Position numbers and translations under genes: made by a program | Origin: Chrysochromulina tobinii | Lineage: Eukaryota | Assembly: GCA_001275005.1 (NCBI GenBank) | Contig: JWZX01003344.1 | Span: forward strand, 1-60,084 | Direction: 5' to 3' | Length of the DNA: 60,084 nucleotides | The notes under the pieces: generated by a model | Seen by the model: the letters and a program-made list of their open reading frames with translations, nothing else | The model's database searches: none | What the model was told of the DNA's origin: nothing | Shown here: positions 943 to 38,800 of the stretch, one piece after another | Numbering within the stretch: position 1 is the stretch's first letter | How the letters are laid out: the number at the start of each line of letters is the position of its first letter

Positions 943-3900
943 TCAGAGCAGCAGCGAGCGGCCCGCGGCGCCTGTGATCTCGCCCACCTTGGCGTACACG
1001 TCCTTGGGCTTGTACGCGACGCATCCGCGGAGCATCGCAGCGCCCGACGGGTGGGAGACGACGGCGGCGTAGGGCGCCTTGTCGGTCTTGGAGAGCTTGA
1101 GGTCCGTAAAGAGGCGCGCGAGCGTGGCGCGCGAGTACGGGTCGAGGTGCTCGGGGGGCTCGAGGCTCGAGGCGGCGGGTGTGCGGTGCAGGAGCTCGTA
1201 CATGCCGGCAACGTCGAGCATCCGTTGCGTGTGGAATCCGAGGCAAGCAAACGCCTTGGCCGGCGTGTCGCACGCGTAGAGCAGCAGCTGCTGCACGTCG
1301 ACGGTGTCGTCCACGCTGAGCGCCTCGAAGAGCACTGCCTTGGTAGCGCCGATGACGTCGTACGCGCCCGGCGGCACCGGCGGGCGCCCCTCTTGTATCC
1401 AGAGCGGCAGCTCATCGTATTGGGCTTTGCTCAGCTTGAGCCCGACGCGCGCGGGCATCGTCGGGTCCAGGTGCTTGCCGGCGAGCGCCGCAGCCGCGTT
1501 GAGCATCTTGACGATGGCGCCCTCCGAGGGCGGCGGCAGCGCCGCGAGCGCAAAGAGCACGTCGGCCCAAGCGACCTGCGGCGAGCCCGGCGGGCAGAAG
1601 AGCGCGACGAGCTGCTCGTACTGGCTCGGCCCGAGGGGCCACCACTGCTCTGGCAGGGGCGGCGAGCTCGCGTCGAAGCCGGCGGCGCCGAGCCGGCTGA
1701 GCACGTCCTTGAGCGCGCTGCCGGTGAGGAAGGCGCCGTCGGCCGAGGCCTTGAGGCTCTTGGCGAGCCGTTGCAGCTGAACCACCGTGAACTGGTCGGC
1801 GAGGGGGTCCTGCCGGGGCGGTGGCACGGGCGGCGGCGGCTCGGGCGGCAGCATCAAGAGGGATTCGTCAATGATGAGCTGGTCGCCCTGCAGCTGCAGT
1901 GAAAGGGGGAGCGTCGCCTCCGCTTCGATGGCGCTGCGCATCAGGCCCACGAGTGAATTGCCCGCCACCGACTCGGCCTTTTGGCGCTGCCCGAGCCAGC
2001 CGTCGAGCTGCTTGAAGGTGCCCGCCACCTGCTCGCGCAGCCCTTCGACGGCGCCGCAGCCGTAGCGCAGGATGGCGACGAGCCGACGGCGCAGCTTGGC
2101 GCGCTCGCCAAGGAGGACCGAGTGCAACAGGGCCACGTACTCCGCAAACCGGAGGGCCTGGGCGTCGACACCGGGACCGGGCGCGGGCGGCGCGGGCGGC
2201 GCGGCACCTTCAATCGGTTCGCAGTGCGACGCAACGAGTGCGCTCACTGCTTGCGCGAGCGTCGCCTGCGGCGAGACGGCCGCCACCGGCGCCGCGCCCT
2301 TGGCGTCCTTGCCGCCCTTTGCGGGAGGCGCGCCCTTGCCGCCCTTGGCATCCGGAGGCGGGGGGGGCGGCGCGCCGTCGCCGGGAGGTGGCACGTTCAT
2401 CTCGACCGCCTCGGCGACGGCCACCTCGGCGAGCGGCGGCGGCGCGAAGGGCAGCGTCCGCTCGGCCTTGAGCGAGAGGTATGCATGCACGAGGCCGCAC
2501 GTGCTGCTGTAACGGTCGGCCTCGGCCTGCACGAGCGCGAGCAACGCCTGCGTGAGCTGCAAGGCATGCGAAGGCAGCCAGCCGTCGGAGGCCATCGAGG
2601 CGAGCATCGCCTCGCACTCCGCGCGCCGCCGGTCCGAGTGCGCGTACAGCGCCTCCTGCAGGTCAGACGCGATCATGTGCAGCTCGGCCTTGCCGTGATC
2701 CACGAGGCGCAGCTCGATGGGCATGGCGTTGAACTTCTGCTGAGCGTTCAGCGCCTCCGCTTCGCGCTGGTCGGGCCCTGTGAGCAGTTCGACGAACTCG
2801 TTGCGGCAGGAGCACACGCGCTGCAGCGCGTGCCACTGCAGCTTGCGCATCGTGCCGAAGGTGCTCGACATGGCGCTCACGTACGCCTTCTCGAGGGCCT
2901 GCCACTGCGCGAAGAGCACCTCGTGCGACTCAGGCGCGAGGGCGGCTGGGGCGGCCGCGACAGCGCCCAGGGCGTCCTCGGGTGGAGGCAGCCCTGCGGC
3001 CGCCGCCTCGGCAAGCTTGGCCGCCTTGGCCGCCTCCTCCGCCACCTTGGCCTCCGCCTCGGCCGCCGCGGCCGCCGCGGCCGCCGCGGCCGCCGCGCCC
3101 TCCTGCAGGAAGGCCTCGCGCGCACCGAGGCGCTCGCGCTTGAGCTGCAGCTTCTCGGCGATCGCCACGCCGATGCGCTCCGACACCTCCTCAATCGACG
3201 CCTCCCCTCCGACCGAAGCGAGCAGGTTGAGCCCGTAGCCAGGCGCAGGCGCGGGCGTCACGCCCTCGCTCGGCCCATACCACTCCGCGAGCGCGGCCTC
3301 GGCATCCTTGTAGGCCACCAGAGCCATTGGCAGCGTCGCCTCGGCGTCGGCCGCGCCCTCGACGTGCACGAGCCGGCCGTTGATGCCGTCAAACGTGGGG
3401 CCGAGCTCGTCCTCCGTCTCCTGGGGAGGTTCGAACTCGAGGTGGTAGATGGTCCCCGTCTTGGGGTCGAGCCGTCGGCCGAGCGCGCGCCGTCGCGCCG
3501 TCTCCTCCGGCAGGTCGAGACGCAGCACGCAGTCAAGCCCGGGCACACGCGGCGGCTTGGAAGGATCGTCCGCGGGAGGGGGCGGTGCGACCTTAGAGCC
3601 CTTCTTGGGCGGCTCCTTTGGCGGCGGCTCGAAGCCCGTCAGCGCCTTTTCGAGCAGCAGCGCCTGCGCCACCGTCTTGGGAAAGTCATCGAGCACGAAC
3701 CCTGCGTAGCTCACGTGATCGATCGCCTCGATGGCGCCGACGATGAGGCCCACTAGCACGTCGTCAGGCACGGGCCCCGGCAGCGCCGCGGCCGCGCGCC
3801 GCGCGAGCTCGAGGGGCACGTGGGCGGGCGGCTCAACGGCCGCCGCCGCCGCCGCCGCCGCCGCCTCCGCCGCCTCGCCCTCCAAGCCCGCCGCCGCCGC

Positions 3901-5910
3901 CGCCTTGGTGGCCGCGAGCTGCTCATCGTAGCGCTTGCATGCGGCCACCGACGCGGCGACCACCTCGGCGGGCAGGATGGCGAAGAGCCGGTGAGAGGTG
4001 ACGAGCTTCTGCGCCTGCAGCGACGTGCCGCTGTACGGCCGGCCGAGCAGGGCCACCTTGACCATCTGGTCCGGCAGCGACGCGTGCTCGCTCACGGGCG
4101 GCGGCGGCATGCAAGCCTCGATGCACTCGAGAACCATGCGCCCCGTCTGCGCGCAGCCCGACTCGGCGGGCGCCGGGTGGAGCGTCGCATCCGACGAGAG
4201 CACCTCGGCCACCGCCACGTCCGCCGGCACCCTCACCAGCGACAGCGCGGGCACTGACCAATCGGCCGCGCCGATGAGATATGTGTCGAGCTCAGCCGCA
4301 TGAAGCATCGCCTCAGTCTCCGCGAGGGCTGTAGCGGGCGCCTCTGGCAGCTCCTCGATGTGCGGCGTGTCGACGTCGATCGGCCCGTCGAGCGGCACGC
4401 CCGCCTTGAACAGCGCGGTCCAGTCGCGCATCACCTTGGGCGGCATCAGCGGCGCGGCCGTCGCGCGGAAGTCGACGACCCGCCCAGCGAGCGCCACGAG
4501 CTGCTCGGCGATGCGTCGACACGTGGCCTCGTGCTTCTGGCGCGTGACCGCCTGGCGCGCGGACTCGTTCTCGGCCGCCGCCTCGCGCTCGCGCGCGAGC
4601 CGCTCCATGTACTCCTGCCGCGCGTGCTCGCCCAGCGCGCGGTCGTGCGCGCGCCGCGCGAGCTCCGACTGACGCGCCGCCTCGGCAAGCTGCTGGTCCC
4701 GAAGCTCGCGATTGTGCCGCATGGCGTCCTTCTCCTTGCGAGCAATCCAGAGCTGCTCGCCGATCTGGCGCTCCTCCTGGCTCTGGCGCGCCAGCTTCGA
4801 GAGCACCAGCTCTTCACAACGCTTCTCCTCGAGCTGCGCCTGCGCCGCGTCCTGCTCGAGCATCACCTTGCGCCGACGCATCTCCCGCTCCTTGCGACCA
4901 GCCTCCTCCTCTAGCCGCTTGACGCGCAGCCGGCCGAGGTACTGCTTGGCCTCGGCGTCCATCGACGCGGCCGAGGGGAGCATTGCCTCGAGCTTCATCA
5001 GGTGCTCCGCCGCGCCCACCTCGACGCGCATCGTGTCGGCGGCCGCGTCGTCCGAGGACGGGCCGTCGCTTTGCAGCCGGCGCAGAGTCGACTCGAACTC
5101 GTGTACGCCCTGCTGCATGTCGAGGGTGTGGAACTCGTGGGTCTTGGCGAGCGTGGCCGCGTGCTTCGTGCGCACCGTCAGCTCGAAGCGCAGCTTCGCT
5201 TTCTCGTCCTCCTTGCGTCGGGTCAGGTTGATTTGGTGCTTGGCGTAGCCGTCGGCCTGCCACTCGGACATCAGCCGCTGCCCCTCGTGGAGCTTGGCGA
5301 GCTCGAGCTGGCGCCGCTGCGCGACCATGGCCGTGTACTGCTTGGCGCGCAGCTCGTCCAGCTCCTCGTCGCGCCGCTGCTGCTCGATCATGTGCTCCGT
5401 GAACTTGGAGAGGGAGAGCGCCTGCGCCAGCTGCTTCGGGTCCTGCACCTGCTGCTTGACGAGGCCCTCAAAATGATCCGCCTGCATACGCTCGTGCGTG
5501 GTGAGCATCGGGCGCGTGGCCTTGAGCGTCGATCCGAGTAGCACGGCCTCCTTTTTGCCGCGGCGCACCACCGGCTTGCCGCCGCCGCCGGTCTTGGCAT
5601 TCTCCAGGCCGAGCTTGAGCTGGTACATCATGTTGATGCCCACGCCCTTGGTCTCGGTCATCAGGTCGTTGGCGAGCTTGGAATTGAATTTGACGCCGAG
5701 GTCGAGCAGCGGCTGCTGGATCGCAGTCAGGTTGGCCACCTTGACGCTCGGCGCCTCGCTGTCCTGCAGCTGCGTGCCCTGCGGCAGCAGCCCGTGCTCG
5801 TCGAGCAGCACGCCGAGCAGGTAGCCGTTGCACAGATCGCCCTCAAAATGGTCGATCTGGCGGCACGATGACGGCAGCGTCTCATTGGCCCAGGCCTTGA
5901 GCAGCTCCAT
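943..5910 (-). CDS. SPEF2: Sperm flagellar protein 2 / CPC1-like central-pair protein (CH domain, coiled coil, adenylate-kinase-like domain)
   Basis: 1655-aa intronless ORF. N-terminal CH-like segment (FEGDLCNGYLLGVLL), long coiled coil, degenerate P-loop LLGRPYSGTSLQA, GFVLDDFPKTVAQA and LID-like RRLDPKTGTIYHLEFEPP match the SPEF2 architecture. Confidence 0.85.
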   Translation of the reverse strand: MELLKAWANETLPSSCRQIDHFEGDLCNGYLLGVLLDEHGLLPQGTQLQDSEAPSVKVANLTAIQQPLLDLGVKFNSKLANDLMTETKGVGINMMYQLKLGLENAKTGGGGKPVVRRGKKEAVLLGSTLKATRPMLTTHERMQADHFEGLVKQQVQDPKQLAQALSLSKFTEHMIEQQRRDEELDELRAKQYTAMVAQRRQLELAKLHEGQRLMSEWQADGYAKHQINLTRRKEDEKAKLRFELTVRTKHAATLAKTHEFHTLDMQQGVHEFESTLRRLQSDGPSSDDAAADTMRVEVGAAEHLMKLEAMLPSAASMDAEAKQYLGRLRVKRLEEEAGRKEREMRRRKVMLEQDAAQAQLEEKRCEELVLSKLARQSQEERQIGEQLWIARKEKDAMRHNRELRDQQLAEAARQSELARRAHDRALGEHARQEYMERLAREREAAAENESARQAVTRQKHEATCRRIAEQLVALAGRVVDFRATAAPLMPPKVMRDWTALFKAGVPLDGPIDVDTPHIEELPEAPATALAETEAMLHAAELDTYLIGAADWSVPALSLVRVPADVAVAEVLSSDATLHPAPAESGCAQTGRMVLECIEACMPPPPVSEHASLPDQMVKVALLGRPYSGTSLQAQKLVTSHRLFAILPAEVVAASVAACKRYDEQLAATKAAAAAGLEGEAAEAAAAAAAAAVEPPAHVPLELARRAAAALPGPVPDDVLVGLIVGAIEAIDHVSYAGFVLDDFPKTVAQALLLEKALTGFEPPPKEPPKKGSKVAPPPPADDPSKPPRVPGLDCVLRLDLPEETARRRALGRRLDPKTGTIYHLEFEPPQETEDELGPTFDGINGRLVHVEGAADAEATLPMALVAYKDAEAALAEWYGPSEGVTPAPAPGYGLNLLASVGGEASIEEVSERIGVAIAEKLQLKRERLGAREAFLQEGAAAAAAAAAAAAEAEAKVAEEAAKAAKLAEAAAAGLPPPEDALGAVAAAPAALAPESHEVLFAQWQALEKAYVSAMSSTFGTMRKLQWHALQRVCSCRNEFVELLTGPDQREAEALNAQQKFNAMPIELRLVDHGKAELHMIASDLQEALYAHSDRRRAECEAMLASMASDGWLPSHALQLTQALLALVQAEADRYSSTCGLVHAYLSLKAERTLPFAPPPLAEVAVAEAVEMNVPPPGDGAPPPPPPDAKGGKGAPPAKGGKDAKGAAPVAAVSPQATLAQAVSALVASHCEPIEGAAPPAPPAPGPGVDAQALRFAEYVALLHSVLLGERAKLRRRLVAILRYGCGAVEGLREQVAGTFKQLDGWLGQRQKAESVAGNSLVGLMRSAIEAEATLPLSLQLQGDQLIIDESLLMLPPEPPPPVPPPRQDPLADQFTVVQLQRLAKSLKASADGAFLTGSALKDVLSRLGAAGFDASSPPLPEQWWPLGPSQYEQLVALFCPPGSPQVAWADVLFALAALPPPSEGAIVKMLNAAAALAGKHLDPTMPARVGLKLSKAQYDELPLWIQEGRPPVPPGAYDVIGATKAVLFEALSVDDTVDVQQLLLYACDTPAKAFACLGFHTQRMLDVAGMYELLHRTPAASSLEPPEHLDPYSRATLARLFTDLKLSKTDKAPYAAVVSHPSGAAMLRGCVAYKPKDVYAKVGEITGAAGRSLLL

Positions 5911-6943
5911 TTGGGATCAGACCGAGTGGTCACGACGGTGTTTGAGAAGCAAGGCAGTCTGCTTTGCAACCGACTTCGCTTCAAAGTGTGTCTCGTTCAT
6001 ATGAATACTTGTACACAATGTAATAAGGTGTATTCTGAGCGGGCAGTAACAGTGCCGTAGCACCGGTTGTCGCATCTGTCGTGTTAACGTTCACACAGCT
6101 CTGCCGCTCGACCCCAACAGTTAAGCGGCCGTGAACCACCGTGTGAAGAGACAGTAGCCCGGCCAGGGGGAAGGTGTCTCCCGGCCGTTTGGGATATTGG
6201 GCACATGGGGTACCATATGGGGATACCTATCGGGAGATCTGCTGCTCAAGGTTTCGAGATCAAAGGGGAAATCTCGAAGCTACAATGTAGTCGATGCGCA
6301 TCCTGATTAACCCCTACGGGAGATACACGTGGCAGATTGTGTGCTACTCGGCACCGCTGCACCTCGGGGGGGGTCTCGAAGCGCAATGCAGGGTCGCGCA
6401 TGTCGTCGTCTCGTCATTGCGTCTCGTCGAATCCTCCGATGAGAGATAAGTGGTCCCGCCCACGGCCCAGCCCACCCACCGCGATGTAAGCCTGTAGCCT
6501 GGCGTGGTCTAGCTTTAGCAGGGACCGGGTACTTATGTCGCCGCTCACCACGAGGCTGCGTTTGTGTAGCTTTGATGAACAACGCGCGACCAGGTTTACG
6601 TACGGTAAACGGCACATTCATTCACAGCACACCAACAGGCAACACGCACATTCAAACCCGGCTATACCCGGTTTCAAACCGTCCCTGCACATTCACTGGT
6701 CCCAAAACGGCCAGAAGATCTGTTCGAAGATCTATCAGCACATCAGTTTCGTCGCGGTCACCCGAGCGCTCCGCACACCATCGTCTCATCAAAGGACGGC
6801 TCCACACCCCTCGGCTCAACACAAGAATTGAGTACTCGCTCGCTCGGGCTTGCACGTTTTGGTTGGTCGCGCGCTGCCGGGGGGTTGTGCTTGTGGTCCC
6901 GAAAATTGAAAATGCCTCAGTGGAGGAGTTTCCGCCCTGTGAC

Positions 6944-9175
6944 TTACTTACTGGTGGGGCTGTTGCCGTCAAAGGTGCGGCTGCTGTCAAAGGTGCTGGT
7001 AGAAGCCATGTACTTGCTGGCCTCGTACGTGCTGGTCAACACATCGTCGCCTCCAGCACGAGGGGATGGCACCGAGGGCAGTCGAGCAGAGTCGCAGCCG
7101 GCGTGGAGCGAGGTCATACGGCCGGGCCGTTCAAAAGTCGTGACGGAGGGTGTCTTCGACGACCGTGGGAGAGTGAGCGCCAGATCGATCGAGTCGGTCA
7201 TGTCCATCGTCCGGGTCAAGGTGGGGCTGTTGCCGACAAACGTGCTGGTCGAAGCCTTGTTGGGGTCACAGGTGCTGCTCGAAGCGGCGTCATCAAAGGT
7301 GCCGTCGTACGTGCTGACGAAACCGGCCGCTGCAGAGGTTTGCTTCGACATTCGCCGGAACTTGGATTTGGTCGAGCTGCTGGACACGCAAGGCGAGGGG
7401 GCGGCGTCGGCACGAGGGCTGAGCGCAAGCGACCCGCCGAGGATGCTCTTGGAGGCGCCGTACGTGCCCTGTGAGGCGTCGTACGTGCCCTGGCTGTCGA
7501 CGGCGACGGGCGCGAGCACCCTCCGGCGCTGGAGTCGCACGAGCGGGCGCATGTCGCGCGCACCCTTGAGGATGCCGTTTTGGATCCCAGGAGACGCGAT
7601 CGCGTCCGCGATCGCCGGCATGTCAGGCCGTTGCTCAGGGTCGCGCCGGCAGCACTGCTTGGCAAGGGCGAGGATGCTGGCTGGGCACTTGTACTCGCGC
7701 CGATCGGTGTCATCGATGAGCACCTGCACAGGGGAGACTTCGCCGCGCTGCACCACGCGCACGATGTCCATCGCGGTCTTGCATTTGAGCGCGTAGTAAG
7801 GCGGGCGCAGCGTCGCCATGTGCACGAGCAGGCACCCAAACGACCACACGTCGAGCGCCGCCGAGTGGGCCTCGCCACGCGCCACCTCGGGCGCCATGTA
7901 TGGCGGCGTGCCATGGATCCCCTCGCCCTCGGCGGCCGAGCCGGGCTTGCCCTTGGCGGACGAGCCGAAGTCGGCGACCTTGGCCACCCACGAGTCCGAG
8001 AGCAGCACGTTGCCAGGCTTGAGGTCGCGGTGAAGCAGGTTGTTGAAGTGCAGGTACGCGACGCCCTTGGCCACGTCGCTCGCGATCGAGAGGAGCGAGG
8101 CGCGCCACGTGCGGTACTCCCTGTACTCGGCGGTGCTGTGCAGCAGCTCAAGCAGCGAGATCTCGAGCAGCTCGAGCACGATGCCCACGCGCTGCACGTT
8201 GTCGGTGGTGATGCCAAGCATGAGCACCACGTTCGGGTGGCGCAGAGTCATCATGGTGTCGTGCTCCTGCAGCATGTCGGCCAGCAGCGCCGCCGAAGAC
8301 TCCCTGTCCTCGCGCAGCTGCTTGACCGCGCAAGGCGTCGCCTTGAACGAGCACGCGTGCACGGTGCCAAAGGTGCCCTCGCCCAGCTTCTCGAGGATCT
8401 TGAGATCCTTCCACGGGATGGGCTGGATCTTGCTCGACTTGGTCGCCTGGACGATCATCTGGTTGAGCGCAAACGACTTGGCCGCCCATCGAGGAGTCAG
8501 GTCGCTTGGTATCGACGAGAGCAGATTGTTCTTTGATGGGTTGTGCTCATCAAAGGTCGCCGAGGCGAAGGCGGGCGCGACAGGATTGTCCTTCTTCACA
8601 AAGTCGATGGTAGCCTCGGCTTCGAGATCTTTGTCCTTCTTCAAGTCGATGGTAGCCTCGGCTTCGAGATCCCTGGCGGGTCGGGCGGCGGCATCCGTCT
8701 GTCTGGCGGGTTGGGTGGCCTTCACAATGTCGACATCCTCGTCCAGCGCGATGCCGTGGGTGGCCGCCCCTAAATCCTCGTCCAGCGCGATGCCGTGGGT
8801 GGCCGCCCCTCTCTCGTCGGCAGTTCTCGAGCTCGTACTCGCGCCAAAGCCCACCTGTGCTCGCAATCTGCCGAAGGCATCGGGGGTGTTGCCGGCGCGG
8901 CCGACCGACTTGGCCCGGCTGCGCCGGCAACGCCTTACCAGCAGTATGGCTGCGATGCCGCCCAGAAGCGAACCGGTCCCGACGGCGATCAGCACTGTGA
9001 GCACGGTGCCGCCGCCGGCATCGGGCACGGAGAGCCCGGGGTTAAATAGCGTTGGCGAGGGCGGTGGTGGCGAGGGCGGTGGCGAAGGAGGCGGCGGAGG
9101 CGACGGCGCCTCGATCTCGAGAATGTTGTAGGTCCAATCGACTTTCACGATTTTGCCGGCGCGGCCGACCGACAT
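6944..9175 (-). CDS. Single-pass receptor-like protein kinase (TKL-like) with Pro-rich (SPPPP) N-terminal region; start uncertain
   Basis: TM helix VLTVLIAVGTGSLLGGIAAILLV followed by RRCRR. Kinase motifs LGEGTFGTV, AVK, HRDLKPGN, DFG, GTPPYMAPE and DVWSFG are intact. The ORF is open to 9319; the ATG at 9175 is the last in-frame ATG before the Pro-rich region. Confidence 0.85.
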   Translation of the reverse strand: MSVGRAGKIVKVDWTYNILEIEAPSPPPPPSPPPSPPPPSPTLFNPGLSVPDAGGGTVLTVLIAVGTGSLLGGIAAILLVRRCRRSRAKSVGRAGNTPDAFGRLRAQVGFGASTSSRTADERGAATHGIALDEDLGAATHGIALDEDVDIVKATQPARQTDAAARPARDLEAEATIDLKKDKDLEAEATIDFVKKDNPVAPAFASATFDEHNPSKNNLLSSIPSDLTPRWAAKSFALNQMIVQATKSSKIQPIPWKDLKILEKLGEGTFGTVHACSFKATPCAVKQLREDRESSAALLADMLQEHDTMMTLRHPNVVLMLGITTDNVQRVGIVLELLEISLLELLHSTAEYREYRTWRASLLSIASDVAKGVAYLHFNNLLHRDLKPGNVLLSDSWVAKVADFGSSAKGKPGSAAEGEGIHGTPPYMAPEVARGEAHSAALDVWSFGCLLVHMATLRPPYYALKCKTAMDIVRVVQRGEVSPVQVLIDDTDRREYKCPASILALAKQCCRRDPEQRPDMPAIADAIASPGIQNGILKGARDMRPLVRLQRRRVLAPVAVDSQGTYDASQGTYGASKSILGGSLALSPRADAAPSPCVSSSSTKSKFRRMSKQTSAAAGFVSTYDGTFDDAASSSTCDPNKASTSTFVGNSPTLTRTMDMTDSIDLALTLPRSSKTPSVTTFERPGRMTSLHAGCDSARLPSVPSPRAGGDDVLTSTYEASKYMASTSTFDSSRTFDGNSPTSK
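8583..8810 (-). repeat. Two short in-frame tandem duplications in the kinase juxtamembrane region
   Basis: GAATHGIALDED x2 and DLEAEATID x2, near-identical at DNA level. Confidence 0.8.
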
Positions 9176-9444
9176 TGGCCCGCGTGGCGGGGTTTCGCGA
9201 GACGCCGTCATCGACGTTGGGCACACCCGAAAGCTTCGGCTCAAACCAGGTGGCGCTTCTCGACGAGGTGCCCGGCGCTCTCGCGCTCCTGGTGGCCGCG
9301 CTAGACAAGGCGGGTGCATCCCGTGCGGACGACCTCGGGCTCATTATCGCCGGTATTGCTGTGGCACGCGGTTCGAGCTACCGGCTGCTCCTCGAGGCGG
9401 GCACCGTGCCTTCGCTCTTGCGCCACCTGCCGCACAATGCATCC

Positions 9445-12400
9445 ATGGGCATCGCGCTCGCCATTGAAATGATCGCAGCAAACGAAAACGGTCAGGATGC
9501 GCTGTGTAAATGCAATGCACCGCCGCTGCTCTTGGCCGCGGCGTCGCAAGCTTCGAACTCGGCAGCTGCGAGATGCTTGGCGTCTTCATTAGGTCACTTG
9601 GCGGCGCATGCCAGTGCACGGGCGGAGCTCGCAAGCCTCGAGCAGCGTGCCGCCAGCGACGACAAGGCGCTGGAGCTCTATGCCATGGCCGGGTTGACCG
9701 CTCGTGGCTTCTTTGCAATGAGGGGGAGCGTGATGCAGCTGTTACAATCGCTGTCGGCGCGTTCGCTGTCTCAAGGCGCGCTGTTGCTCATACAAGCTGT
9801 TGCAATCTCAGGCTCCCCAGAGCAAAAGTATCAACTGATCACGAGCGGCAGCACATTCGAGATGCTCGTCCAAAGCGTCGAGGGCGATGTGACCGGCTGG
9901 GCATGGTGCGCCCTCTCGGAGCTCGTCAGCTCAGACCAGGGCCGTAAGCGCGCGCTCCAACTCGAGCTGCCTCGCCGACTGCCCGCGGCGCTCAAGAGCA
10001 ACTTCAAGGTGGCGTACCAAGCGCTCGTGGTCATAGACAGGCTCTCAGTGAAAGGCTCCAAAGCTGCCGCGGTGGTGCTGGCCACTGATGGGGTGATCTC
10101 CGAGCTCACCCGGCTGATTGCTGCGAACAGTGAGCATTATGAGGCACGATACATTGCCAACGCAGCGGCGAACACGATCAAGAACGTGGTGGGGAGCGCG
10201 CCAGTGTCATACGAACTGACGCCACTCTCCGAATGGAGCCTCGCCATGCAAGCGGCGAGCGTGCTCGAGCGCGCAGCGGTCGAGGCGCTCGAGCCGACGT
10301 TGAAGCTGCTGTCTCTGCCTAAAGTTGCGGATGCGAGTACAGATCATTTGGCTTCCCTTGCGTCCGTGCTTGCGAGGAGCGCTCACGGCTGCAGCTTGGC
10401 GCGCATCGCGCTCGGAAACGTGCTGCAGACGGACGTCACGGTAACCACCTCTGGGCTGCAGGACGCCTTTCTGCTTCGAAACCGTCTGCTCTCGGCATGC
10501 TACGACAATGGGCTGTGGGAGCCGGCGCGCGACTTGGGTGTCGAGCTCATGGCGGTGCTAGAGTTGGGGCAACGCGAGCCGGAGAGGTGCAGCGCGGCTC
10601 TCATTGTGCTTCACAGCTTACCCGACTTTGAGAGTTCTGTTGCGCCTGCTTTGATGAGTAAAGGCTCGGCCGTGCACGTGCTTGTGGGACTGCTGGACCC
10701 CACCAGTCTCGATATTGCGCACTTTGCGCTCCGTGCACTCTGTGTGGTGGCAAAGCTGCCTGGAGGGTACACGGCACTCGCAGATGCCGGTGCTCTCCAA
10801 GCGGCGGTGCAGCTCCTTCGCGAGAGGATGAGTTCGAGCTGGAATTGCGCGGACTTGCTGAGCGCCATCCTGAGCGCTGCGGACAGCGCGGGCGGCGACG
10901 AGCGGCGGCGCGTCGCTGATGCGGTCGTCGCCCTTGGCGCGGTGCCGATGCTCCAGGCCCAGGTCATGAACGACCCGCTCCTCCGGCGCTCGACCACCGC
11001 CGACTGCTGCACGCTGCTCACGCACCTCGCGCGGACCGACGCGGGGGCGCAGGCGCTCAAGGCGCTGATCGACGCGCGCGCCGTGTGCGCGGTGCGCGCT
11101 GTGGTGGCGACGACGAGCCACGCGCGCGCGGCGGCGATGGGGACGGGCAGGCTGATGGGGGCGGTGCACTCGTGGCTCAAGGCGCTCCACAGCATGGCGC
11201 CAGCGGAGCGCGAGGCGACGCTTGGGCTGGTGAGCGACCTCGCCGCGGCGCGCGACGTGTCGACGGAGATGCACGTGCTGCCTCTGGTGCCGCTGATCGT
11301 GCCGGTGGTGCAGTCGATGATCGACGGCGGCGTGTCGGCGCGCGACGTGTTTGCCGTCGCGGTGGTGAAGCTGCTTGCATCTCTGAGCGCCGAGCAGGCG
11401 GGGCTACGGGCGGTGCACGGCGCGGGCGTGCTGCCGCTGCTGCTGCCGCTGATGCGCGCGGGGTCGGCGGCGGGCGAGGGCGCGTACCTGAGCGAGGGCG
11501 GCACGCTGCTCAAGCGCGCGCTGGCCGACGCGGAGGCGCGACCGGCGGGCGTGCGCGTGGTGGAGGCGGTGGTGGGGATGCTGCCGGCGGCGGAGGGCGC
11601 AGGCGTCGATCCCTTTGACGCCGCGGAGGCGCGGCTCGCGATGCGCGCGCTGAAGCCGATCGTCCCGTTCCAAGCTGCGGATGCGGTGTCCGCGATGCCG
11701 TCGCTGGTGGCCGTGCGTGAAGCGGGTGGCGTCGCGCGAACGTTGGCGGCGCTGCGTGGCGACGAGTGGGCGCTGACGCGCTCGCTGGTTCGTCCGGCAG
11801 TTTTTTGTTTTTGCGGGCTGCTCAACGAGCCGGACGGCATGGCGGTCGCGCACGGCCTCGGCGCGCTCCGCACCCTCGTCGACGCCCTCGAGCGGTGCCC
11901 CGACGTGAGGATACACGCCTTCCTCGTGCCGCTCCAGTTATATGTCATCGCACCCGTCCACGCCTACCGCGACGCGATCCTCGACGCCGGCCTCCTGCCC
12001 CGCCTGGCCGCCTTTCTCGAGCCGGGGCCGTCGCACCCCGGCTTCTTCATCTCGACCGCCATCGTGGAGCTCCTCGTCTCCTACGGCGCGCCCGCCCACC
12101 GCGAGGCCGTCCGCTCGAGCGCCGCGCTCGCCGCCATCCTCCGCTGGCGCGCGAGCGGCCGTCTGGCCTCGAGCGCCAATGCTGCTGACCTGATCTCGCG
12201 CTCCTCGACCTTGGTCGGCTGGTTCGCCACCGACCCGGCGGCGCGCTCCATTTTGCGCCGCGCCGTCGACGAGCTGGGCGAAGACGCCGGAACAAAGGAC
12301 GAGGCCGCGCTCAAGCTGCTCACGAGTGCGAGCGCCTTGCCCGAGGGGGCGGCGGTCGCCGTGGACGAGGGCGTCGTGCCCGCAATCATCAAACTGCTCG

Positions 12401-15400
12401 AGTCGGATGCACGGAGCGCCCGACACGCCGAGGCGGCGGAGTGCTTGGAAGTCCTCGCGCGCATGCTCCCGAAGCGCACGGCTCCCGCTGCGGCGGTGTG
12501 CGTCCAGAAGATCAACGAGGCGCTCGACGCGCGCGACGCGAGTGTGCTCGCGCTGCGCTGTGCGCGCGCGCTCGGGTACCTTGCCGAGGCCTCCTCCAAG
12601 GCTCGCGCCGTGATCCGCACACTCGTCGCGCGCATCTTCGAAGAGGCCGACGGCGGCCGCGAGACCCACGCGATCGCGACGCTACAGCTGCTCGGCGTCA
12701 CGTGCGAGTCGCCCGATGGCGCGCGCGTCGCATTCAAGGCGGGCGTGGTCGCCGAGGCGGTGCAGGCGCTGAGCGGCGCGCGCGACACCCAGCTGCGCGC
12801 AAAGGCCCTGGAGGTCCTCACCTCGGTCGCGAATAACAACGAGGCGGCGCGAGCGTCCATGCGCGACGGCAACCTCATCGACACCCTCGTGCGGCTCCTC
12901 CACCGCTCGTGGGCCGTGCCGTCCGCAGCGGATGCGGTCGGCGTGGCCGGCCCGTCCGACGCTGCGGCGAGCCGCGACGCTGCCGCGGCCGCGCCGCACT
13001 CGGCATTCAAGTACAGCGCCTACCTCTCGCACGACGGCGCCCGCGACGAGCTCAAGCGCAACCACGTGGAGCGCGTCAGGGCTGTCCAGGCGGCCCTCGC
13101 CAAGGCGGGCCTGGCGCCGTGCCTCGTCGATGCGGAGCAGAGCGCCGATGACGTGAGCCGGCCGGTGGCCGACGGCATCGCGCAGTCGGCGTGCGTGGTC
13201 GTCTTCCTGACCGAGTCGTACATGAAAAAGGCCGCCGGGCTGGGCAGCAAGGGCGACGACGACAATGCGCGCTTCGAGTTCAACCTGGCGTGCAGCCCGC
13301 TCAAGGGGGTCGCCAAGATCATTCCGGTGGTCATGGAGCCGCAGTGCCTCGCGCAGACGGCGTGGCAGCCGCTCTTCCTTGGCAAGCTGGGCGGCAAGGA
13401 GTACATTGACCTGGCCCGCGACAATGACGAAGCCGCCAGCGGCGAGAAGCACTTTGATGCCGGCGTGGGCCGCCTGATCGCGTCGATCAAGGCGATGCCG
13501 GGCAGCCTCGTTGGGGGAGGGGCGGCGGCGGCGCCGGCGGCGCAGGGGGGATCGTCGTCCGCACCGGCCACCATCGCACCCGCGGACGCGGCCGACGACC
13601 TGGACCGCGACGTGAGCGTGGGCAAGTTGGCGCTGGCGCTCTTGCACACGCTCTCGCGGGGCGACGCGCTGCGCCAAGCCATCCAGGCCGCCAAGCCGCT
13701 CGACGCGCTGCAGTACATCATCGAGCACGATGCGGCACAGCGCGCCGACGCGCTCCTGATCGTGAGCAACGTCTACTCCGAGGTGCTGAGCCAGACGGTG
13801 GACAAGCGCCACGGCGCGGCCATGGCGCAGCACGAGTACGTGCGCTCCCTGCTGCACGACACTCGCATCGAGGACCATCTCGCACCGCGCCTCGCCGAGG
13901 GCGTCAAGGACCTCGTGATTGGCAGCGGGCCGTCGAATGCGCGCATCGCCGCGACCGCCGTGCGAAATCTGGCGGCCGAGTCGGTGCTGCGCCCACGCCT
14001 CGTGCACAAGGGCGTGGGCAGCAGCCTCGCACGCATGCTCGTCGAGGGGCCGCTGGCCCCGCACCCCACGTCGGACGCCGACCTCGTCCTGGCCGCCGAG
14101 GCGCTGCAGCGCTGCGCGCTCGCCATCACGGGCGCGGCGGAGGAGACGGATCGCATGCGGAAGCGGCTCGTCGCGGACGGAGCCGAGGCCGCGCTCACCT
14201 CCGCCGCCGAGCTGCACGAGAACGAGGATGCCGACACGGAGAGCGTCCAGCGGCGTCGGCAGGCGGCCAGCTACGCCCTCGACGCGCTCCACGGCAAGCT
14301 GGATGTGCAGAGCCTCCCTGGCAAAGGACACGCCCAGCGCACGCTCAAGCGGCAGCTCTCGACCCTGGGCACCGACTACAGCAAGTGGGACGACCGCCAG
14401 CTTCTCAGCATCCCGCGCTACAATACGTTCATCTCGCACAAGCGCTCGTCGGCGCAGGACTTTGCCCGAGGGCTGCACTCGCTCATCGTGCACCACGGCC
14501 ACTCGTGCTTCATCGACGTCGAGAACCTCGAGTCACTGAGCGACCTGCCGATGGTGGTCGCGGGCTGCGACGTGTTCATCATGGTGAGCACGCTGCGCTG
14601 CCGCCGCCCTCCTCATGCATCGGGATCTGATTGGCTCCCGGCCTTCTCCGCATGCATTGGGATCTGATTGGCTCCCTGCCATCTCCGCATGCATCGTGAT
14701 CTGATCGGCTCCCTGCCATCTCTGCATGCATTGGGATCTGATCAGCTCCCTTTCATCTCCGCATGCATCGTGATCTGATCGGCTCCCTGCCATCTCTGCA
14801 TGCATTGGGATCTGATCGGCTCCCTTTCATCTCCGCATGCATTAGGATCTGATCGGCTCCCGGCCATCTCCGCATGTCCTCTCACACGCCCCCCTGCCCT
14901 GAGCACGCGCGCACCCCGCTCCGCGCAGGTCCTGAGCGACGGCGTCTTCGAGTCCAAGTTCTGCATGCAAGAGCTTGCGAGCGCCGTCAACGCTGGCGTC
15001 GAGATCGTCCTCATCACCAAGGAAGGCTCTCGCTGGCCCAACCGGAACGGCGACATGGTCGAGGTCTTCCCGCCGCCCGAGCTCATCGAGGCGCTCGAGC
15101 CGCCCGAGTGCCGCGCCGCGTTTGCGCGCCGCGCGATCACGCACACGAACGAGTACTACGCCGCCTTCAGCCACAACCTCATGCAGACCGTGGACAAGCT
15201 GATCAAGGAGCACCGCCAACAGCACGGCAACCCGCCAGAGGGGCAGGACACCCCCGACCGGCTCGTCTTGACGCAGCGACGGCAGCTGCTCCTGGCGCGC
15301 AGCCAGAGCGCCAACCGCAGCAAGGGCTCCTCCGCCACGGCCGCGGTCGCCGTCGTGGAGTCCGCCACCACGTCGCCCGTCAGCCTCGTGGACGCCGAGC

Positions 15401-16949
15401 GGCTAGAGGAGGCCATCGACGAAGTGGGCGACGACCCGAAGCTCGACCCGCGCGTGGTCGCGGCGGCGAAGCGGAAGCTGGAGCGCGCGCGCGTGCAGAG
15501 CAAGTGCACGCTCACGGAGAAGCTCGCCGCGGCGCGCGCGGGCAAGGCGTGCGAGTTTCAGTTCATGCGCGCCAAAGTCCTCCTTGAACGCGACTACAAA
15601 TCCGCGCCCATGCACAAGAGCGTTGAGGATGACTCGGAGCTGTACACAATGCTCTATCTCTCGTCGGCCGAGTGCTGCCAGCACATGTTCCGCGATAAGG
15701 TCCTCGCCGTGTCGCATCGATGGGACCGGAAAGAAGAGCCCGACCCGACGGGCGCTCAGATGAAGGCCAGCAAGCGCATGCTGCGTGCCAACCCCCAATA
15801 CGAGTACGTGTGGCTGGTACGTCGCAGAGCCCTCTTTTGCACATGCTCCTGCGGGTGCCCCCTCCCAATGGACCATTCCACTCTCAAGCATGAATGCATG
15901 AGCTGATTGCGTATCTTTCTCCCCGCGCGTATGGGTGCGATCCGCAGGACTACAGTTGCGCGCCGCAGGGCGAGCGCACGCCGCAGCAGCAAGAGATCTT
16001 CAGCCTCACGCTCGCGAACATCAACTTCCTCTTCCTTGGGGCTTCGGTGCTCATCCTGCTCGATATGTCGTACATGTCGCGCTTTTGGTGAGAGCGAGCC
16101 GCTGCACCGCGTCGTGCGATCGCGCTCCTCCGACTGCTGCTGTGGACGCGGCGCTGAGTTGTTGTGTTCGCATGCTCCGCTGTGGTTGGCAGGACCCAGT
16201 TCGAGGCCTGGATGGCGTTCCAGGAGATTGATTCCCACGGCGTGCTGCGATGCGCTCCGGAGGCTAACCGTCGGTGCACGATTGAGTGCATCCACAACGC
16301 CAACGAGTACACCAAGCTGGGGCTGATCGACATGTGGTCCAACAAGACGCCAGAGGAGGCGTACACCATCCTGAAGAGCGAGGACGTGTCCGTCACCAAC
16401 AAGAAGGACAAGGAGCTGCAGCTGCCCATCATCCAGAAATTCAAGGAGAGCGTGCAGACGACTTGGCGGGCGGCGGTCGAGAGTGGCGAGATGGAGGCCG
16501 TCCTGAGCCCCTCCCGAAGGCCGAGCTTCAAGGCCGAAACCGAGACGGCGCTCGGCGAGCCGGCGAGCCCTTCGGTCAAGGGTGTCTTGGCGAGGCCCCA
16601 GCTCGCACCGTCGCCGTCAGTCTCGACTGTGCGTTTTGAGGCGGATTCGTCCACTGGGCAGGGCGCCATGCTCATGAAAGCGTTTGATACCATCCACCAG
16701 CAAGGAAATACCATTGAGCAACTGAGCCAGCAGCTGGCACAGGCCAACGCGGAGGTGCTTCAGGCGAACAAGGAGGTGCTTCAGGCGAACAAGGAGGTGA
16801 TGCGGCTGTCGCAGGCGCACACGGACGCAACCTCTAGGGCACACACGGAATTTGCGAATGCCGTGAGCAAGCAGGCGGAGCTCCATGTGCAGTTGCTTGC
16901 CGAACAATCAAGGGAGCGCAAGAAGGATGGGCACGGTCCGGGCCGGTGA
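9445..16949 (+). CDS. Giant ARM-repeat / TIR / ARM / TIR / HET-like / coiled-coil protein (~2307 aa); exons 9445-14583, 14929-15816, 15948-16087, 16193-16949; 5' end uncertain
   Basis: Three GT-AG introns join separate ORFs in frame (6924 nt in total) and rebuild motifs across the junctions: CDVFIM|VLSDGVFESKFCMQEL (TIR), YVWL|DYSCAPQ and SRFW|TQFE (HET-like). The Ala/Leu-rich helical repeats with GxV/LPxL patterns are ARM-like. Confidence 0.8.
14616..14876 (+). repeat. ~36-nt minisatellite (GCATGCATTGGGATCTGATCGGCTCCCTGCCATCTCC-like, about 7 copies) inside intron 14584-14928
   Basis: Directly visible tandem copies between the donor and acceptor of the intron that splits the second TIR. Confidence 0.9.
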
Positions 16950-35867: not shown

Positions 35868-38800
35868 TCAATAACTCTCGGTTGCCTCGCCGTGAGCTCC
35901 TTCAAGCTTCATCTTCTTGACGAGGTCGGCGAGCACCACCTCGGCGTACCTGGAGAGCAAAGTCCGCATCTGGATCGACTCGCGCGTGAGGAACCTCAAC
36001 TTCTCGCGCCGCTTATTCACCTCGCCCTTGGCAGCGTAGATGATGTTGATGATCAGCATGTCGTTCATCGACTGCCACGAGACGAGCGTGTTGAAGTCAA
36101 AGGTGGAGAGCAGCGTGGGCGAGGCGCCTAGCCGGTAGATGTGAAGCCCGCCATAGTTGATTACCACGAGGATTTTGAGAATCTTGTCCACGGACCACAT
36201 CTCTGCCACGTACTGCGCCGAGAAGCACAACGGCGCGAGGCGCACGCGCTCGATAAACATGCGCGTGGCGGCGACTGCATTCATCTCGGTTTCCATGCGG
36301 AAGGCGGCCACGATCTTGCGAGTTGGCGTGGCAAAGCGATCGGCGCCGTCGTGGTGAATCTCGTCAAGCGCTCCGCGCGTGAGATCGTTGAAGGCCCGTA
36401 CGACCGCACCGTCCCAATCGGCCACCGTCTGCTTCTGCACGGGCGACCGCTTCGCCTCAAGCGACCGGAACCAGTGATAGGGCAGGTAATGATGGAGCTG
36501 GCCCGTGAGCTGCCCCTCCTCGAGAACGATCTCCTTCATGTCCTCTGCCTCGCCGCCGTCGCCAATGCCCACGTGCAAGTCCTTAAAGATGGCGAGACCC
36601 GCGAGCTCGAAAACCTCCTCCTTGTTGCCCGTCGTGAAGCGCCCCTCGCGCATGTCTGCCAGCGCTTGGCAGAACTCGAGGTGCTGCTCTTTTTTCGTAC
36701 GCGCATGCGGCAGTAGCGACGTCTGCTTGCGCAGCACGAGCTGGAACGCCAACTGTGGCACCATCGAGACGAGCCCGTACCTTTTGCGCGCCGCGTGCTC
36801 CCACGCTAGTACCGTCTGGTCGAGGAGCAGTTCGTCGTTCGGCAGCTTTCGCTCCGAGGTACCGCCGGGCAAACCCGGGTGATCCCACTGCTCAATCAGC
36901 CCCCACTCGGACTCGTTGTTGAGGCAGTGTTTCTTGCACATGTAACGGACGACGTCGCGTGTGCGTGTGGCCTCGTCCATCACCATCGTGGTAAAGGTGC
37001 CATCCATGAGCGAGACGCGCAAAAAGTCTTGCGAGAAGATGGGCGACTTCTGGTACAGGATTGCAAGCGTCGTCTGCAGCGTCGCAATCCACTCGTCGGC
37101 AACGGCGCGCTCGGGGGACGCGAGGAAGAACGCTTTCTGGCCCGAGTGCAGGCCGAACTGCTTGCCCTTTTCAATCTTGAAGAACTGATTGGCTAATTTG
37201 AGCGATTGCCGCTCCTCGCCCTCCTCCTCGTCGTCGATCTCGAGGTCCTCGTCCTCCTCGTGCAGCGCGAAGAATCGCAAGTCAAGAGAGCCTTTCTCCT
37301 CCGCCTTGTCTCGCGATTCGTAGTAGCGAAGCTTGCCGTCGTTGTACAGCACGCAATAGCGCCGCTCCCATGATCGCTTCAGGTCCTGTAGCTTGTTGTT
37401 GCCCGTCTTCCTCTTGCGCATGTACCCCTCTTTGATGATCGTGGCCACCTTTTGGTTGACGGGCTTGTCCTCCTCCTCGCCGTCGAGGTTGACCTGCATC
37501 TTATATGAGTCGACCAGCATAGCCTCATGCATTGCCTCCTCGATCTTGTCGCCCCATGTGGCTAGCAACTCCACGGACCGCTGCACATCGGGCTCGATCT
37601 CCATCACGATACTGTTGGAGCCCCAGAGGGTTCCCTTGATGCGCCGGCCGATGGCGCGAAAGCCGCGCACCTTGTGGGCGTACAGTTCGTCCTTTCGCAC
37701 GACCGTCAACGAGGTGGTCGGCTTCACCTTGCCCGAGGCGGTGGTGGACAGATGCGGCAAGTCAGTCAGGCCATTGACGTCTCTCCTCATCGCGGGTGAC
37801 GAGTATCCCTGCAGCTCGCACACAGCCAGATTGTACGAGAGCACCGCGTCGAGCGACTCGTGGTCCTCGAAGAGGGTGAGCGTCCCTTGCTTGAGCGAGA
37901 CATAGTACTTGACAGCCTTCGAGAGCTTGCCGATGCGTACGCTGAGCCACCCCTCGTGGCTCACTTGGAACTTGGGCATCTCCATGTACTCGGCCTTGCC
38001 ATCGTCGTCGCGGCTTTTGACCTTTCCTGGCTTGAGCAGCACGCGCCCCCGCCGCTTGCCCGAGAGGCCAATTCTCGTCTTGCCATACCGCTCCGGGTGC
38101 AAGATCTTGAGCAGAATCGCACGCTTCCTCTCCTTCGTGAGGTCGAGATCTTCGAGCATGTCCTGGAACTTCTTGTGCGCGAGGTACGTGCGCGCGTGCC
38201 GCTGAAGTAGGCGCGCCGAGACGCGCACGTCGATGTATGCGCGCCGGATCTCCCAAGACTTGCAAAAGCCCTGCAGTCGCAGGATGGCGCGCCTGATCTT
38301 GCGGTACGCCACAAAGTATTTGAGCATGCGGAAGAAGGACTGCAAAGTAATCACGAGCCCGAGGATCCTGTGCTCACGCACCTTGTCGAGCCTGTCGATG
38401 ATGTCGTTATTCTGCAGGAACAGCAGCGTCTTGCCCACGCGGTACTTGTTCGGGTCGACCGCGAGCTGCTTGAGCAGCAGCTCGCAGCGCTTGGTCACAG
38501 TGCCAGCGCGCAGCGACGCCGGATCGTCGGCGCAGATGCGGTAGTACTGATAAAAATGCTTGAGCGGCCGGCGCACGTTGAGACCCGCCTTGCGGATCTG
38601 CGTCACCTCGAGAGTGCCCGAGTACGCGAGCTGCTTAAGCATGAAGTCGTTATCCCAGTCGCCCGCCTTGAGAGTCTGGTTGGGCTTGAGGCAGCGGATG
38701 TAGTGGTGTTCAGTCGAGCGCAGCTTCTCCATAAGCGACGAGAGCGACTCAGAGAAGGTCTTCCCCACAGTCTTCTTCTTAAGGCCCGGGCCGCCGCCGC

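What the first reader, a model, noticed from the sequence alone, without database searches (positions are those of the whole stretch)
9445..16949. Giant ARM-TIR-ARM-TIR-HET protein: candidate SARM1-like immune or cell-death NADase with three effector domains
Seen: four ORFs listed separately in the track splice through three canonical introns into one ~2307-aa protein. Its order is ~1180 aa of ARM-like repeats, TIR-1 (~13006-13500), more ARM repeats, TIR-2 (~14416-15210), a HET-like domain (~15550-16440) and a coiled coil. Established: ARM-autoinhibited TIR NADases (animal SARM1) and fungal HET domains (TIR-related cell-death effectors) act in regulated cell death and immunity. Inference: this is a sensor-effector protein of an algal innate immune or programmed cell death system. 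I do not know of a described protein that combines ARM repeats, two different TIRs and HET in one chain.
Basis: partly seen in the sequence, partly recalled or inferred. Interest (0 to 1): 0.9.

Follow-up and report, generated by a model that had tools for sequence, protein, structure and literature searches.

The report
Giant algal triple-TIR armadillo protein
A freshwater alga carries several copies of a huge spliced gene that joins long armadillo repeats to two TIR domains and a HET-like domain, likely an immune sensor that would cut NAD+ to signal or to stop an infected cell; the copy in this window lacks the front part that other assemblies show.

Summary
The C-terminal architecture is real. 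All three introns are spliced in lake RNA contigs (4, 3 and 3 of 4 runs), giving ARM-TIR1-ARM-TIR2-HET-like-coil. TIR1 passes Pfam TIR_2; TIR2's best PDB match is the SARM1 TIR; the HET-like domain fails Pfam HET but folds TIR-like (Z 5.4-6.2). All three keep a glutamate at the catalytic position (HET-like: 209 of 209 relatives). The 5' end is not as proposed: four other contigs hold a gene of about 3,800 codons with two tandem ARM modules. The window lacks the first 266 codons and a 1,169-codon block, and its left 2.2 kb comes from a paralog, joined inside a 626-bp repeat (assembly mis-join or recombinant, unresolved). The gene sits at three or more loci in Chrysochromulina, and copies look mosaic. 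GenBank holds residues 462-2307 as 'tir-containing protein' KOO21666.1; eight paper searches found no description. It is not SARM1 (no SAM; only the TIR matches) and not an NLR. Immune role and NADase activity are inferred, not shown. The scan earlier noted a HET/TIR-like domain fused to TPRs in another protist.

The parts
9172..11382 (+). ARM module A', 5'-truncated, from a paralogous copy (about 92% to module A of the full-length copies); the frame is open but has no natural start
   Evidence: dS 0.15-0.16, dN/dS 0.36-0.41 against L001-L004
10849..11474 (+). 626-bp stretch that occurs twice in the full-length gene (ends of modules A and B); the window switches from paralog type to L001 type inside it, after 11382
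9445..14583 (+).
11383..13005 (+). ARM repeats before TIR1; the most freely changing block between copies
   Evidence: Pfam ARM_ARMC5 E 1.5e-8, below its cut-off; designed ARM and importin-alpha hits to the family profile; dN/dS 0.56-0.93
13006..13503 (+). TIR1, with Glu1278 at 13276-13278
   Evidence: Pfam TIR_2 48.3 bits, cut-off 28; Glu in 14 of 14 aligned rows
13612..14307 (+). Second ARM block, between the two TIRs
   Evidence: AlphaFold2 model matches armadillo repeats at Z 14-17
14416..15210 (+). TIR2 (SARM1/ThsB-like), split by intron 1; Glu1728 at 14971-14973
   Evidence: homolog P0001: best PDB hit SARM1 TIR, E 8e-5; ThsB E 5e-6 and ThcB4 E 3e-8, far below cut-off; Glu in 14 of 14 rows
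14584..14928 (+). Intron 1 (345 nt) holding 7.2 copies of a 37-bp minisatellite
   Evidence: spliced in 4 of 4 RNA runs
15547..16448 (+). HET-like TIR-fold domain across introns 2 and 3; SHRW, WLD and RFWxxxE blocks; Glu2060 at 16203-16205
15817..15947 (+). Intron 2 (131 nt)
   Evidence: spliced in 3 of 4 RNA runs
16088..16192 (+). Intron 3 (105 nt)
   Evidence: spliced in 3 of 4 RNA runs, short sides; same junction in P0248
16665..16949 (+). C-terminal coiled coil (predicted 75-residue helix) with a 21-bp repeat, then the stop codon
9040..9171 (.). Junction zone between a minus-strand receptor-like kinase and the truncated ARM frame; holds a near-copy of 8889-8919 at 9153-9183

Best explanation
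This is the 3' part of a multi-copy Chrysochromulina gene for a roughly 3,800-residue ARM-repeat protein carrying two TIR domains and a HET-like domain predicted to share the TIR fold, likely an intracellular immune sensor whose ARM arms would bind a trigger and release the three domains to cleave NAD+. Shown: splicing, domain order, Glu at the catalytic position in all three domains, no SAM and no STAND NTPase by profile search, three loci with different flanks. Inferred steps: (1) the long ARM solenoid binds a pathogen protein or a modified host protein; (2) the inner ARM block holds TIR2 inactive, as the ARM of SARM1 does; (3) the C-terminal coiled coil brings chains together in place of the SAM ring; (4) activated TIR-fold domains self-associate and hydrolyse NAD+; (5) the cell arrests or dies, which would limit virus spread in a clonal bloom. 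The window's own 5' end is a separate matter: more likely a mis-join of paralogs than the gene as it works.
For: Glu kept in TIR1 and TIR2 (14 of 14 rows each), in the HET-like domain (209 of 209) and in all three domains of 5 of 5 spliced loci. TIR2 is nearest to SARM1 among solved structures. The HET-like model (pLDDT mostly over 90) has the TIR order of strands and helices with the Glu in the helix after the third core strand, and aligns to SpbK, AbTir, MyD88 and SPARTA TIRs and to nucleoside deoxyribosyltransferases at Z 5.0-6.2. Its family is large (4,467 clusters at E<=0.001); partners among 80 scanned relatives include Roc/COR in 9 and GBP in 4. Relatives differ in effector content: P0004 has no TIR1, P0003 no HET-like domain. 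Between loci L001 and L005 TIR2 is the most constrained part (dN/dS 0.15) and the ARM block before TIR1 is looser (0.56; 0.70-0.93 in closer pairs). Copies are patchy mosaics. Fungal HET domains suffice for cell death and have haptophyte homologs (PMC4986451).
Against: No assay, induction or phenotype. The gene is transcribed in ordinary lake samples, which fits any role. Z under 8 may mean only a shared arrangement; Foldseek gave no hit at E<=0.001 and profile-profile matches of the HET-like domain to TIR1 or TIR2 were not significant (E 0.11-0.14). A Glu does not guarantee activity: TLR2 and IL-1R9/10 keep it and are inactive. No block shows convincing dN/dS above 1. The mosaic pattern could come from assembly of mixed strains. 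The neighbours are housekeeping genes, not a defence cluster.
Confidence: 0.5

Rival explanations
1. Same sensor, different output: the TIR domains make a cADPR-type second messenger that activates a separate effector, and do not kill by draining NAD+.
For: In a screen of over 150 eukaryotic TIRs most active ones made cADPR without depleting NAD+; a Chlamydomonas TIR from a clade that includes haptophytes makes 3'cADPR (bioRxiv 10.64898/2026.04.20.719644). TIR2 scores against the Thoeris signal makers ThsB and ThcB4. Three unlike domains suit three products better than one sink.
Against: TIR2's closest solved relative is SARM1, an NAD+-depleting enzyme; fungal HET domains are sufficient for death. 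No receptor for such a signal was identified; I did not place TIR1 or TIR2 on that paper's tree.
Confidence: 0.25
2. A non-immune signalling or scaffold protein (metabolic, prey-handling or cytoskeletal) in which the TIR-fold domains are interaction modules or fine-tune NAD+.
For: Most of the chain is ARM repeats; best fold matches of the inner ARM block include a central-pair protein and beta-catenin. Purifying selection throughout. Expressed in four lake studies.
Against: Three unrelated TIR-fold domains all keep the Glu; gain and loss of effector domains among relatives and gene-sized duplication to new loci are unusual for core structural genes.
Confidence: 0.2
3. On a separate axis: the window's 5' 2.2 kb is an assembly mis-join of two paralogs at the 626-bp repeat, and the organism's real allele has both ARM modules.
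For: From 11383 on, the window differs from L001 at 14 of 13,201 bases, against about 8% before it. 9 of the 15 listed members of a 22-member cluster carry the long 3,266-aa first-exon frame. The same named annotation set holds an L001-type N-terminal half joined to the other paralog's C-terminal half (KOO29975) and a lone module-B piece on a 3,130-bp contig (KOO35984). Lake RNA letters at 5 of 6 sites between 9220 and 9303 match L001-L004, not the window.
Against: The join is in frame; all copies show exchange tracts, so real recombination in the repeat is plausible; distant relatives P0002-P0004 have a single module. No reads spanning the joins were examined.
Confidence: 0.6

Closest known systems
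SARM1 / TIR-1 (ARM-SAM-SAM-TIR NADase)
   Same: ARM repeats upstream of a TIR; TIR2 aligns to the SARM1 TIR with the Glu in register.
   Different: No SAM domain; ARM regions show no sequence match to SARM1's; about five times longer; two more TIR-fold domains and a coiled coil.
Fungal HET-domain proteins (PF06985; HET-E, HET-D, HET-R, TOL, BH1)
   Same: Three motif blocks ending in WxxxE (fungal consensus recalled, not from a call); weak Pfam HET scores in 6 of 80 relatives; an Atlas structure match to a 100% HET ascomycete cluster, TM 0.59 over 171 residues.
   Different: Below the Pfam cut-off; C-terminal, not N-terminal; no NACHT or WD40; an extra conserved C-terminal part (DVxVTNxxDK).
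ARM-TIR and ARM-SAM-TIR proteins of choanoflagellates, green algae, rotifers and molluscs
   Same: ARM plus TIR_2 in one chain (PMC6040629; Atlas clusters).
   Different: Those Atlas clusters are about 220-1,160 aa; none of the listed ones shows a HET family, and none is described with two TIRs separated by ARM repeats.
Thoeris ThsB / ThcB4 signal-making TIRs
   Same: TIR2 scores E 5e-6 and 3e-8 against them.
   Different: 32.9 bits against a cut-off of 220; no effector gene beside it; eukaryotic spliced gene.
GenBank KOO21666.1, KOO23359.1, KOO29975.1 ('tir-containing protein', Chrysochromulina tobinii)
   Same: These are this gene and its paralogs.
   Different: Automatic names only, all partial against the 3,800-codon gene; the HET-like domain and the family are not noted.

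Membership tests
TIR_2 (PF13676), TIR1 | Pfam score above the curated cut-off | tested here: met
   48.3 bits, cut-off 28
TIR_2 (PF13676), TIR2 | Second TIR_2 stretch after splicing | tested here: met
   two TIR_2 stretches in P0001, P0002, P0003; SARM1 TIR match
Catalytic TIR | Glu in helix alpha-C | tested here: met
   E1278 and E1728 in 14 of 14 rows each; E1728 aligns with the SARM1 WVHKE Glu
Catalytic TIR | NAD+ turnover | not testable with these tools
   needs an assay
SARM1 | Tandem SAM domains | tested here: not met
   no SAM in Pfam scans of P0001 or the full first exon of L001; PDB matches cover the TIR only
SARM1 | ARM domain homologous to SARM1's, with the NMN/NAD+ pocket | tested here: inconclusive
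   no sequence match; SARM1 not among the 50 listed fold matches of the inner ARM block, a list filled by other ARM proteins; N-terminal modules not folded
HET (PF06985) | Pfam score above 22.5 bits | tested here: not met
   no hit for P0005; 6 of 80 relatives score 14-19.5 bits
HET (PF06985) | Three conserved blocks mapping to TIR strands and helix C | tested here: met
   S-H-R-W, W-x-D and R-F-W-T-x-x-E conserved in 190-209 of 209, on strands and the helix after the third strand; the fungal motifs compared with are recalled
HET (PF06985) | TIR-like fold, similar to fungal HET models | tested here: inconclusive
   Z 5.4-6.2 to TIRs and deoxyribosyltransferases; TM 0.59 to a HET cluster; the wide search was filled by coiled coils
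HET (PF06985) | Induces cell death | not testable with these tools
   needs expression tests
NLR / STAND receptor | Central NACHT or NB-ARC NTPase | tested here: not met
   none in Pfam scans
Thoeris ThcB4 | NCBIfam cut-off of 220 bits | tested here: not met
   32.9 bits

The most novel reading that the evidence does not exclude
An NTPase-free class of protist immune receptor: a 3,800-residue ARM solenoid whose sensor modules are deleted, duplicated and swapped between paralogs through a homogenised 626-bp hinge, driving three unrelated TIR-fold enzymes in one chain as a relay (one makes a cyclic ADPR signal, another drains NAD+), with the HET-like domain a true NAD+ glycosidase. That would give the first biochemistry for HET-type domains and a haptophyte antiviral death pathway.
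Probability: 0.2. Interest if true: 0.85.

Novelty: new variant of a known kind. Interest (0 to 1): 0.55.

Why it matters
Haptophyte blooms are ended by giant viruses, yet almost no haptophyte immune protein is known. This gene offers three small, separately expressible domains with a predicted catalytic Glu, so the test is cheap. How HET domains kill is an open question in fungal biology (biochemistry and structure listed as not determined in PMC12881547); this domain belongs to an unnamed HET-like family of thousands of clusters with an invariant Glu. The case also shows that short-read drafts cut and re-join such genes, so their true size is missed.

Tried and rejected
Separate genes at 14929 or 15948: rejected, RNA contigs join the exons. 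Start at ATG 9445: rejected. SARM1 orthology and NLR membership: rejected. TIR1 and TIR2 as a recent duplicate: rejected, no significant match. PDB sequence searches with the HET-like profile and with TIR1 alone found nothing useful. Foldseek on both models gave no hit at E<=0.001; the wide fold search returned only coiled coils. Pattern scans for HET-like relatives found none in viral contigs (0 of 97 candidates) or prokaryote genomes (0 of 12); these scans are narrow. Independent gain of the HET-like domain by P0002: its piece is 45% like other relatives and 28% like the window's and falls apart from it in 200 of 200 bootstrap trees, but the AU test does not reject one origin (p 0.14; 29 rows picked from 211, 89 columns), so not claimed. 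Positive selection: not shown; the two ratios above 2 rest on 1-2 synonymous changes. L007 is a weak prokaryotic hit (E 2e-4) and was left out. No whole genome was held. Scan look-ups by place, by sequence and a second word search gave nothing.
Full report
OBSERVATION. Exons 9445-14583, 14929-15816, 15948-16087 and 16193-16949 join through GT..AG introns into 2,307 codons plus a stop. Nineteen public runs hold part of the stretch; 14 are on record as RNA, nearly all from fresh water. I laid four of them, from four studies. Their contigs, mostly 90-99% alike and so from related strains, skip intron 1 in 4 of 4 runs and introns 2 and 3 in 3 of 4; intron 3 rests on sides of 20-24 nt. No contig spans the whole gene. 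GenBank protein KOO21666.1, 'tir-containing protein' of Chrysochromulina tobinii (P0248, 1,846 aa), is identical to residues 462-2307 across all three junctions and is recorded on a contig of the window's length. So the gene is annotated, with an automatic name.

DOMAINS. TIR1 passes Pfam TIR_2 (48.3 bits, cut-off 28). TIR2 is split by intron 1; in homolog P0001 Pfam finds two TIR_2 stretches, and 17 of 18 PDB sequence hits are SARM1, all over TIR2 alone, best E 8e-5. TIR1 and TIR2 do not match each other significantly. The block between them folds as armadillo repeats (model of mean pLDDT 59, higher in this block; Z 14-17). The N-terminal repeats score only below Pfam's ARM cut-offs, but the family profile hits designed ARM proteins and importin alpha. 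No SAM and no STAND NTPase was found. The third effector fails Pfam HET: no hit in P0005 (94% identical to the window here), and 14-19.5 bits in 6 of 80 relatives against a cut-off of 22.5. Its model from a 60-sequence alignment is confident and aligns best with TIRs (SpbK Z 6.2, rmsd 3.7 over 109; AbTir 5.6; MyD88 5.4) and nucleoside deoxyribosyltransferases (5.8) among Foldseek's top 1,000 chains. These Z values are middling and Foldseek alone was not significant. The ESM Atlas links it by structure to haptophyte clusters with MORN, LRR and ankyrin repeats and to an ascomycete HET cluster (TM 0.59). HET homologs in haptophytes and the HET-TIR link are in print (PMC4986451, passages). I call it HET-like.

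CATALYTIC RESIDUES. Glu1278 and Glu1728 are kept in 14 of 14 aligned rows each, many of them close paralogs. Glu2060, in R-F-W-T-x-x-E, is invariant in 209 of 209 HET-like domains, with Ser1975, His1976, Trp1978, Asp1985 and Asp2010 nearly so. All three are present in 5 of 5 spliced loci. A Glu is necessary, not sufficient.

THE HET-LIKE FAMILY. A profile finds 4,467 clusters at E<=0.001 and 888 at 1e-30 (the profile includes some coiled-coil columns, which may inflate the loosest count). Of 80 scanned relatives (from 120 listed of 234), 9 carry Roc or COR, 4 GBP, 2 ankyrin, 2 ARM, 1 LRR and 1 TIR; of 69 more (from 150 listed), 4 carry HEAT, 2 WD40, 2 TIR, 2 SAM, 2 ankyrin and 1 ARM. Many have no other recognised domain. 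This is the shuffling pattern of an effector domain (inference).

THE 5' END. Homology to ARM relatives continues upstream of ATG 9445. A metagenome scan gave 7 loci from 38 candidates. L001-L004 hold one frame of 3,833, 3,833, 3,818 and 3,819 codons after the same three splices, probably less a first intron of 120 or 111 nt (predicted). The full gene has two tandem ARM modules, 32% identical over most of their length but 96% identical over their last 209 residues, a 626-bp repeat. The window lacks the first 266 codons and one 1,169-codon block. Window 9172-11382 is about 92% identical to module A of all four loci and belongs to none of the three known copies; from 11383 it differs from L001 at 14 of 13,201 bases. 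Upstream of 9172 it has a receptor-like kinase on the other strand that these loci lack. The named annotation set also holds an L001-type front half joined to another paralog's back half (KOO29975) and a lone module-B piece on a 3,130-bp contig (KOO35984); the species' genome paper describes a 454/Illumina draft in 3,472 contigs (PMC4580454, passages). I put a mis-join at 0.6 and a real recombinant at 0.4; no reads across the joins were examined.

COPIES AND RANGE. Three loci have different neighbours on the sides that could be read (L001/L002; L003/L004; L005/L006), and the shared sequence of the first two runs from about 140 bp before the start to about 45 bp after the stop, introns included: gene-sized DNA duplication. 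Copies differ in patches, as after gene conversion, though assembly of mixed strains could mimic this. Simple dN/dS between L001 and L005: TIR2 0.15, module B 0.27, HET-like 0.34, inner ARM 0.37, TIR1 0.42, ARM before TIR1 0.56; in closer pairs the last is 0.70-0.93. Distant relatives keep the scaffold and vary the effectors: P0002 (53% in the TIR region) has both TIRs and the start of a HET-like domain, P0003 (33%) both TIRs and no HET-like domain, P0004 no TIR1; these are gene calls without splicing, so later exons could be missed. A Haptolina protein matches residues 1726-2265 at 61%.

MECHANISM. Best reading (0.5): an ARM sensor that on binding a trigger lets its TIR-fold domains assemble, helped by the coiled coil, and cleave NAD+ to arrest or kill the cell. 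Every step after the anatomy is inferred. Main rival (0.25): the product is a cADPR-type signal; most active eukaryotic TIRs in a recent screen did that without draining NAD+ (bioRxiv 10.64898/2026.04.20.719644, passages and sections 5, 8, 9 read; supplements not seen). Non-immune scaffold: 0.2. How HET domains kill is stated to be unknown (PMC10890737, PMC10197012, PMC12881547; passages). TIR proteins occur in haptophyte-infecting viruses (bioRxiv 10.64898/2026.10.11.758280, passages), which hints at conflict over this chemistry but is no evidence for this gene.

NOVELTY. ARM-TIR proteins outside animals are known (PMC6040629, passages). Eight full-text searches showed no paper on this gene or on an ARM-TIR-ARM-TIR-HET chain; the library lacks most subscription papers, and for the broad searches I saw only the top 19-20 listings. 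Verdict: a new variant of known TIR/HET immune architecture, real and larger than reported, function untested. Interest 0.55.

Noticed in passing
window 6944-9340 (-): Receptor-like kinase frame (Pkinase E 2e-48) with a proline-rich stalk and one membrane helix. Lake RNA contigs leave the window's sequence at 9039 and go on in other, coding-looking sequence, so the part outside the membrane may differ between copies.
   Followed up: partly
window 14609-14876: 37-bp minisatellite in intron 1; the intron is 345, 225 and 112 nt in the three paralogs.
   Followed up: partly
P0005 (KOO25348.1): Named 'trafficking protein particle complex 8' but identical to the last 538 residues of the L004 paralog; an ESM Atlas cluster has taken over the wrong name.
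   Followed up: yes
P0091: A 472-aa frame that joins model residues 641-815 directly to 1740-2009: another deletion form or chimera.
   Followed up: no
P0008, P0010, P0011, P0032, P0125: Two HET-like domains flank a guanylate-binding-protein GTPase in four proteins; P0125 has four HET-like stretches. Roc-COR-HET-like is the commonest recognised fusion.
   Followed up: no
window 16687-16802: The coiled coil varies by 21-bp units: an RNA contig drops 21 and 42 nt here.
   Followed up: no
window 943-5916 (-) and 35868-40214 (-): SPEF2/CPC1 flagellar gene and a myosin with PH and RA-like domains; ordinary neighbours.
   Followed up: no
L007 430-705 and 2820-4064: Weak TIR-like match (E 2e-4) about 2 kb from a BrxL-like Lon protease gene on a prokaryotic-looking contig.
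   Followed up: no
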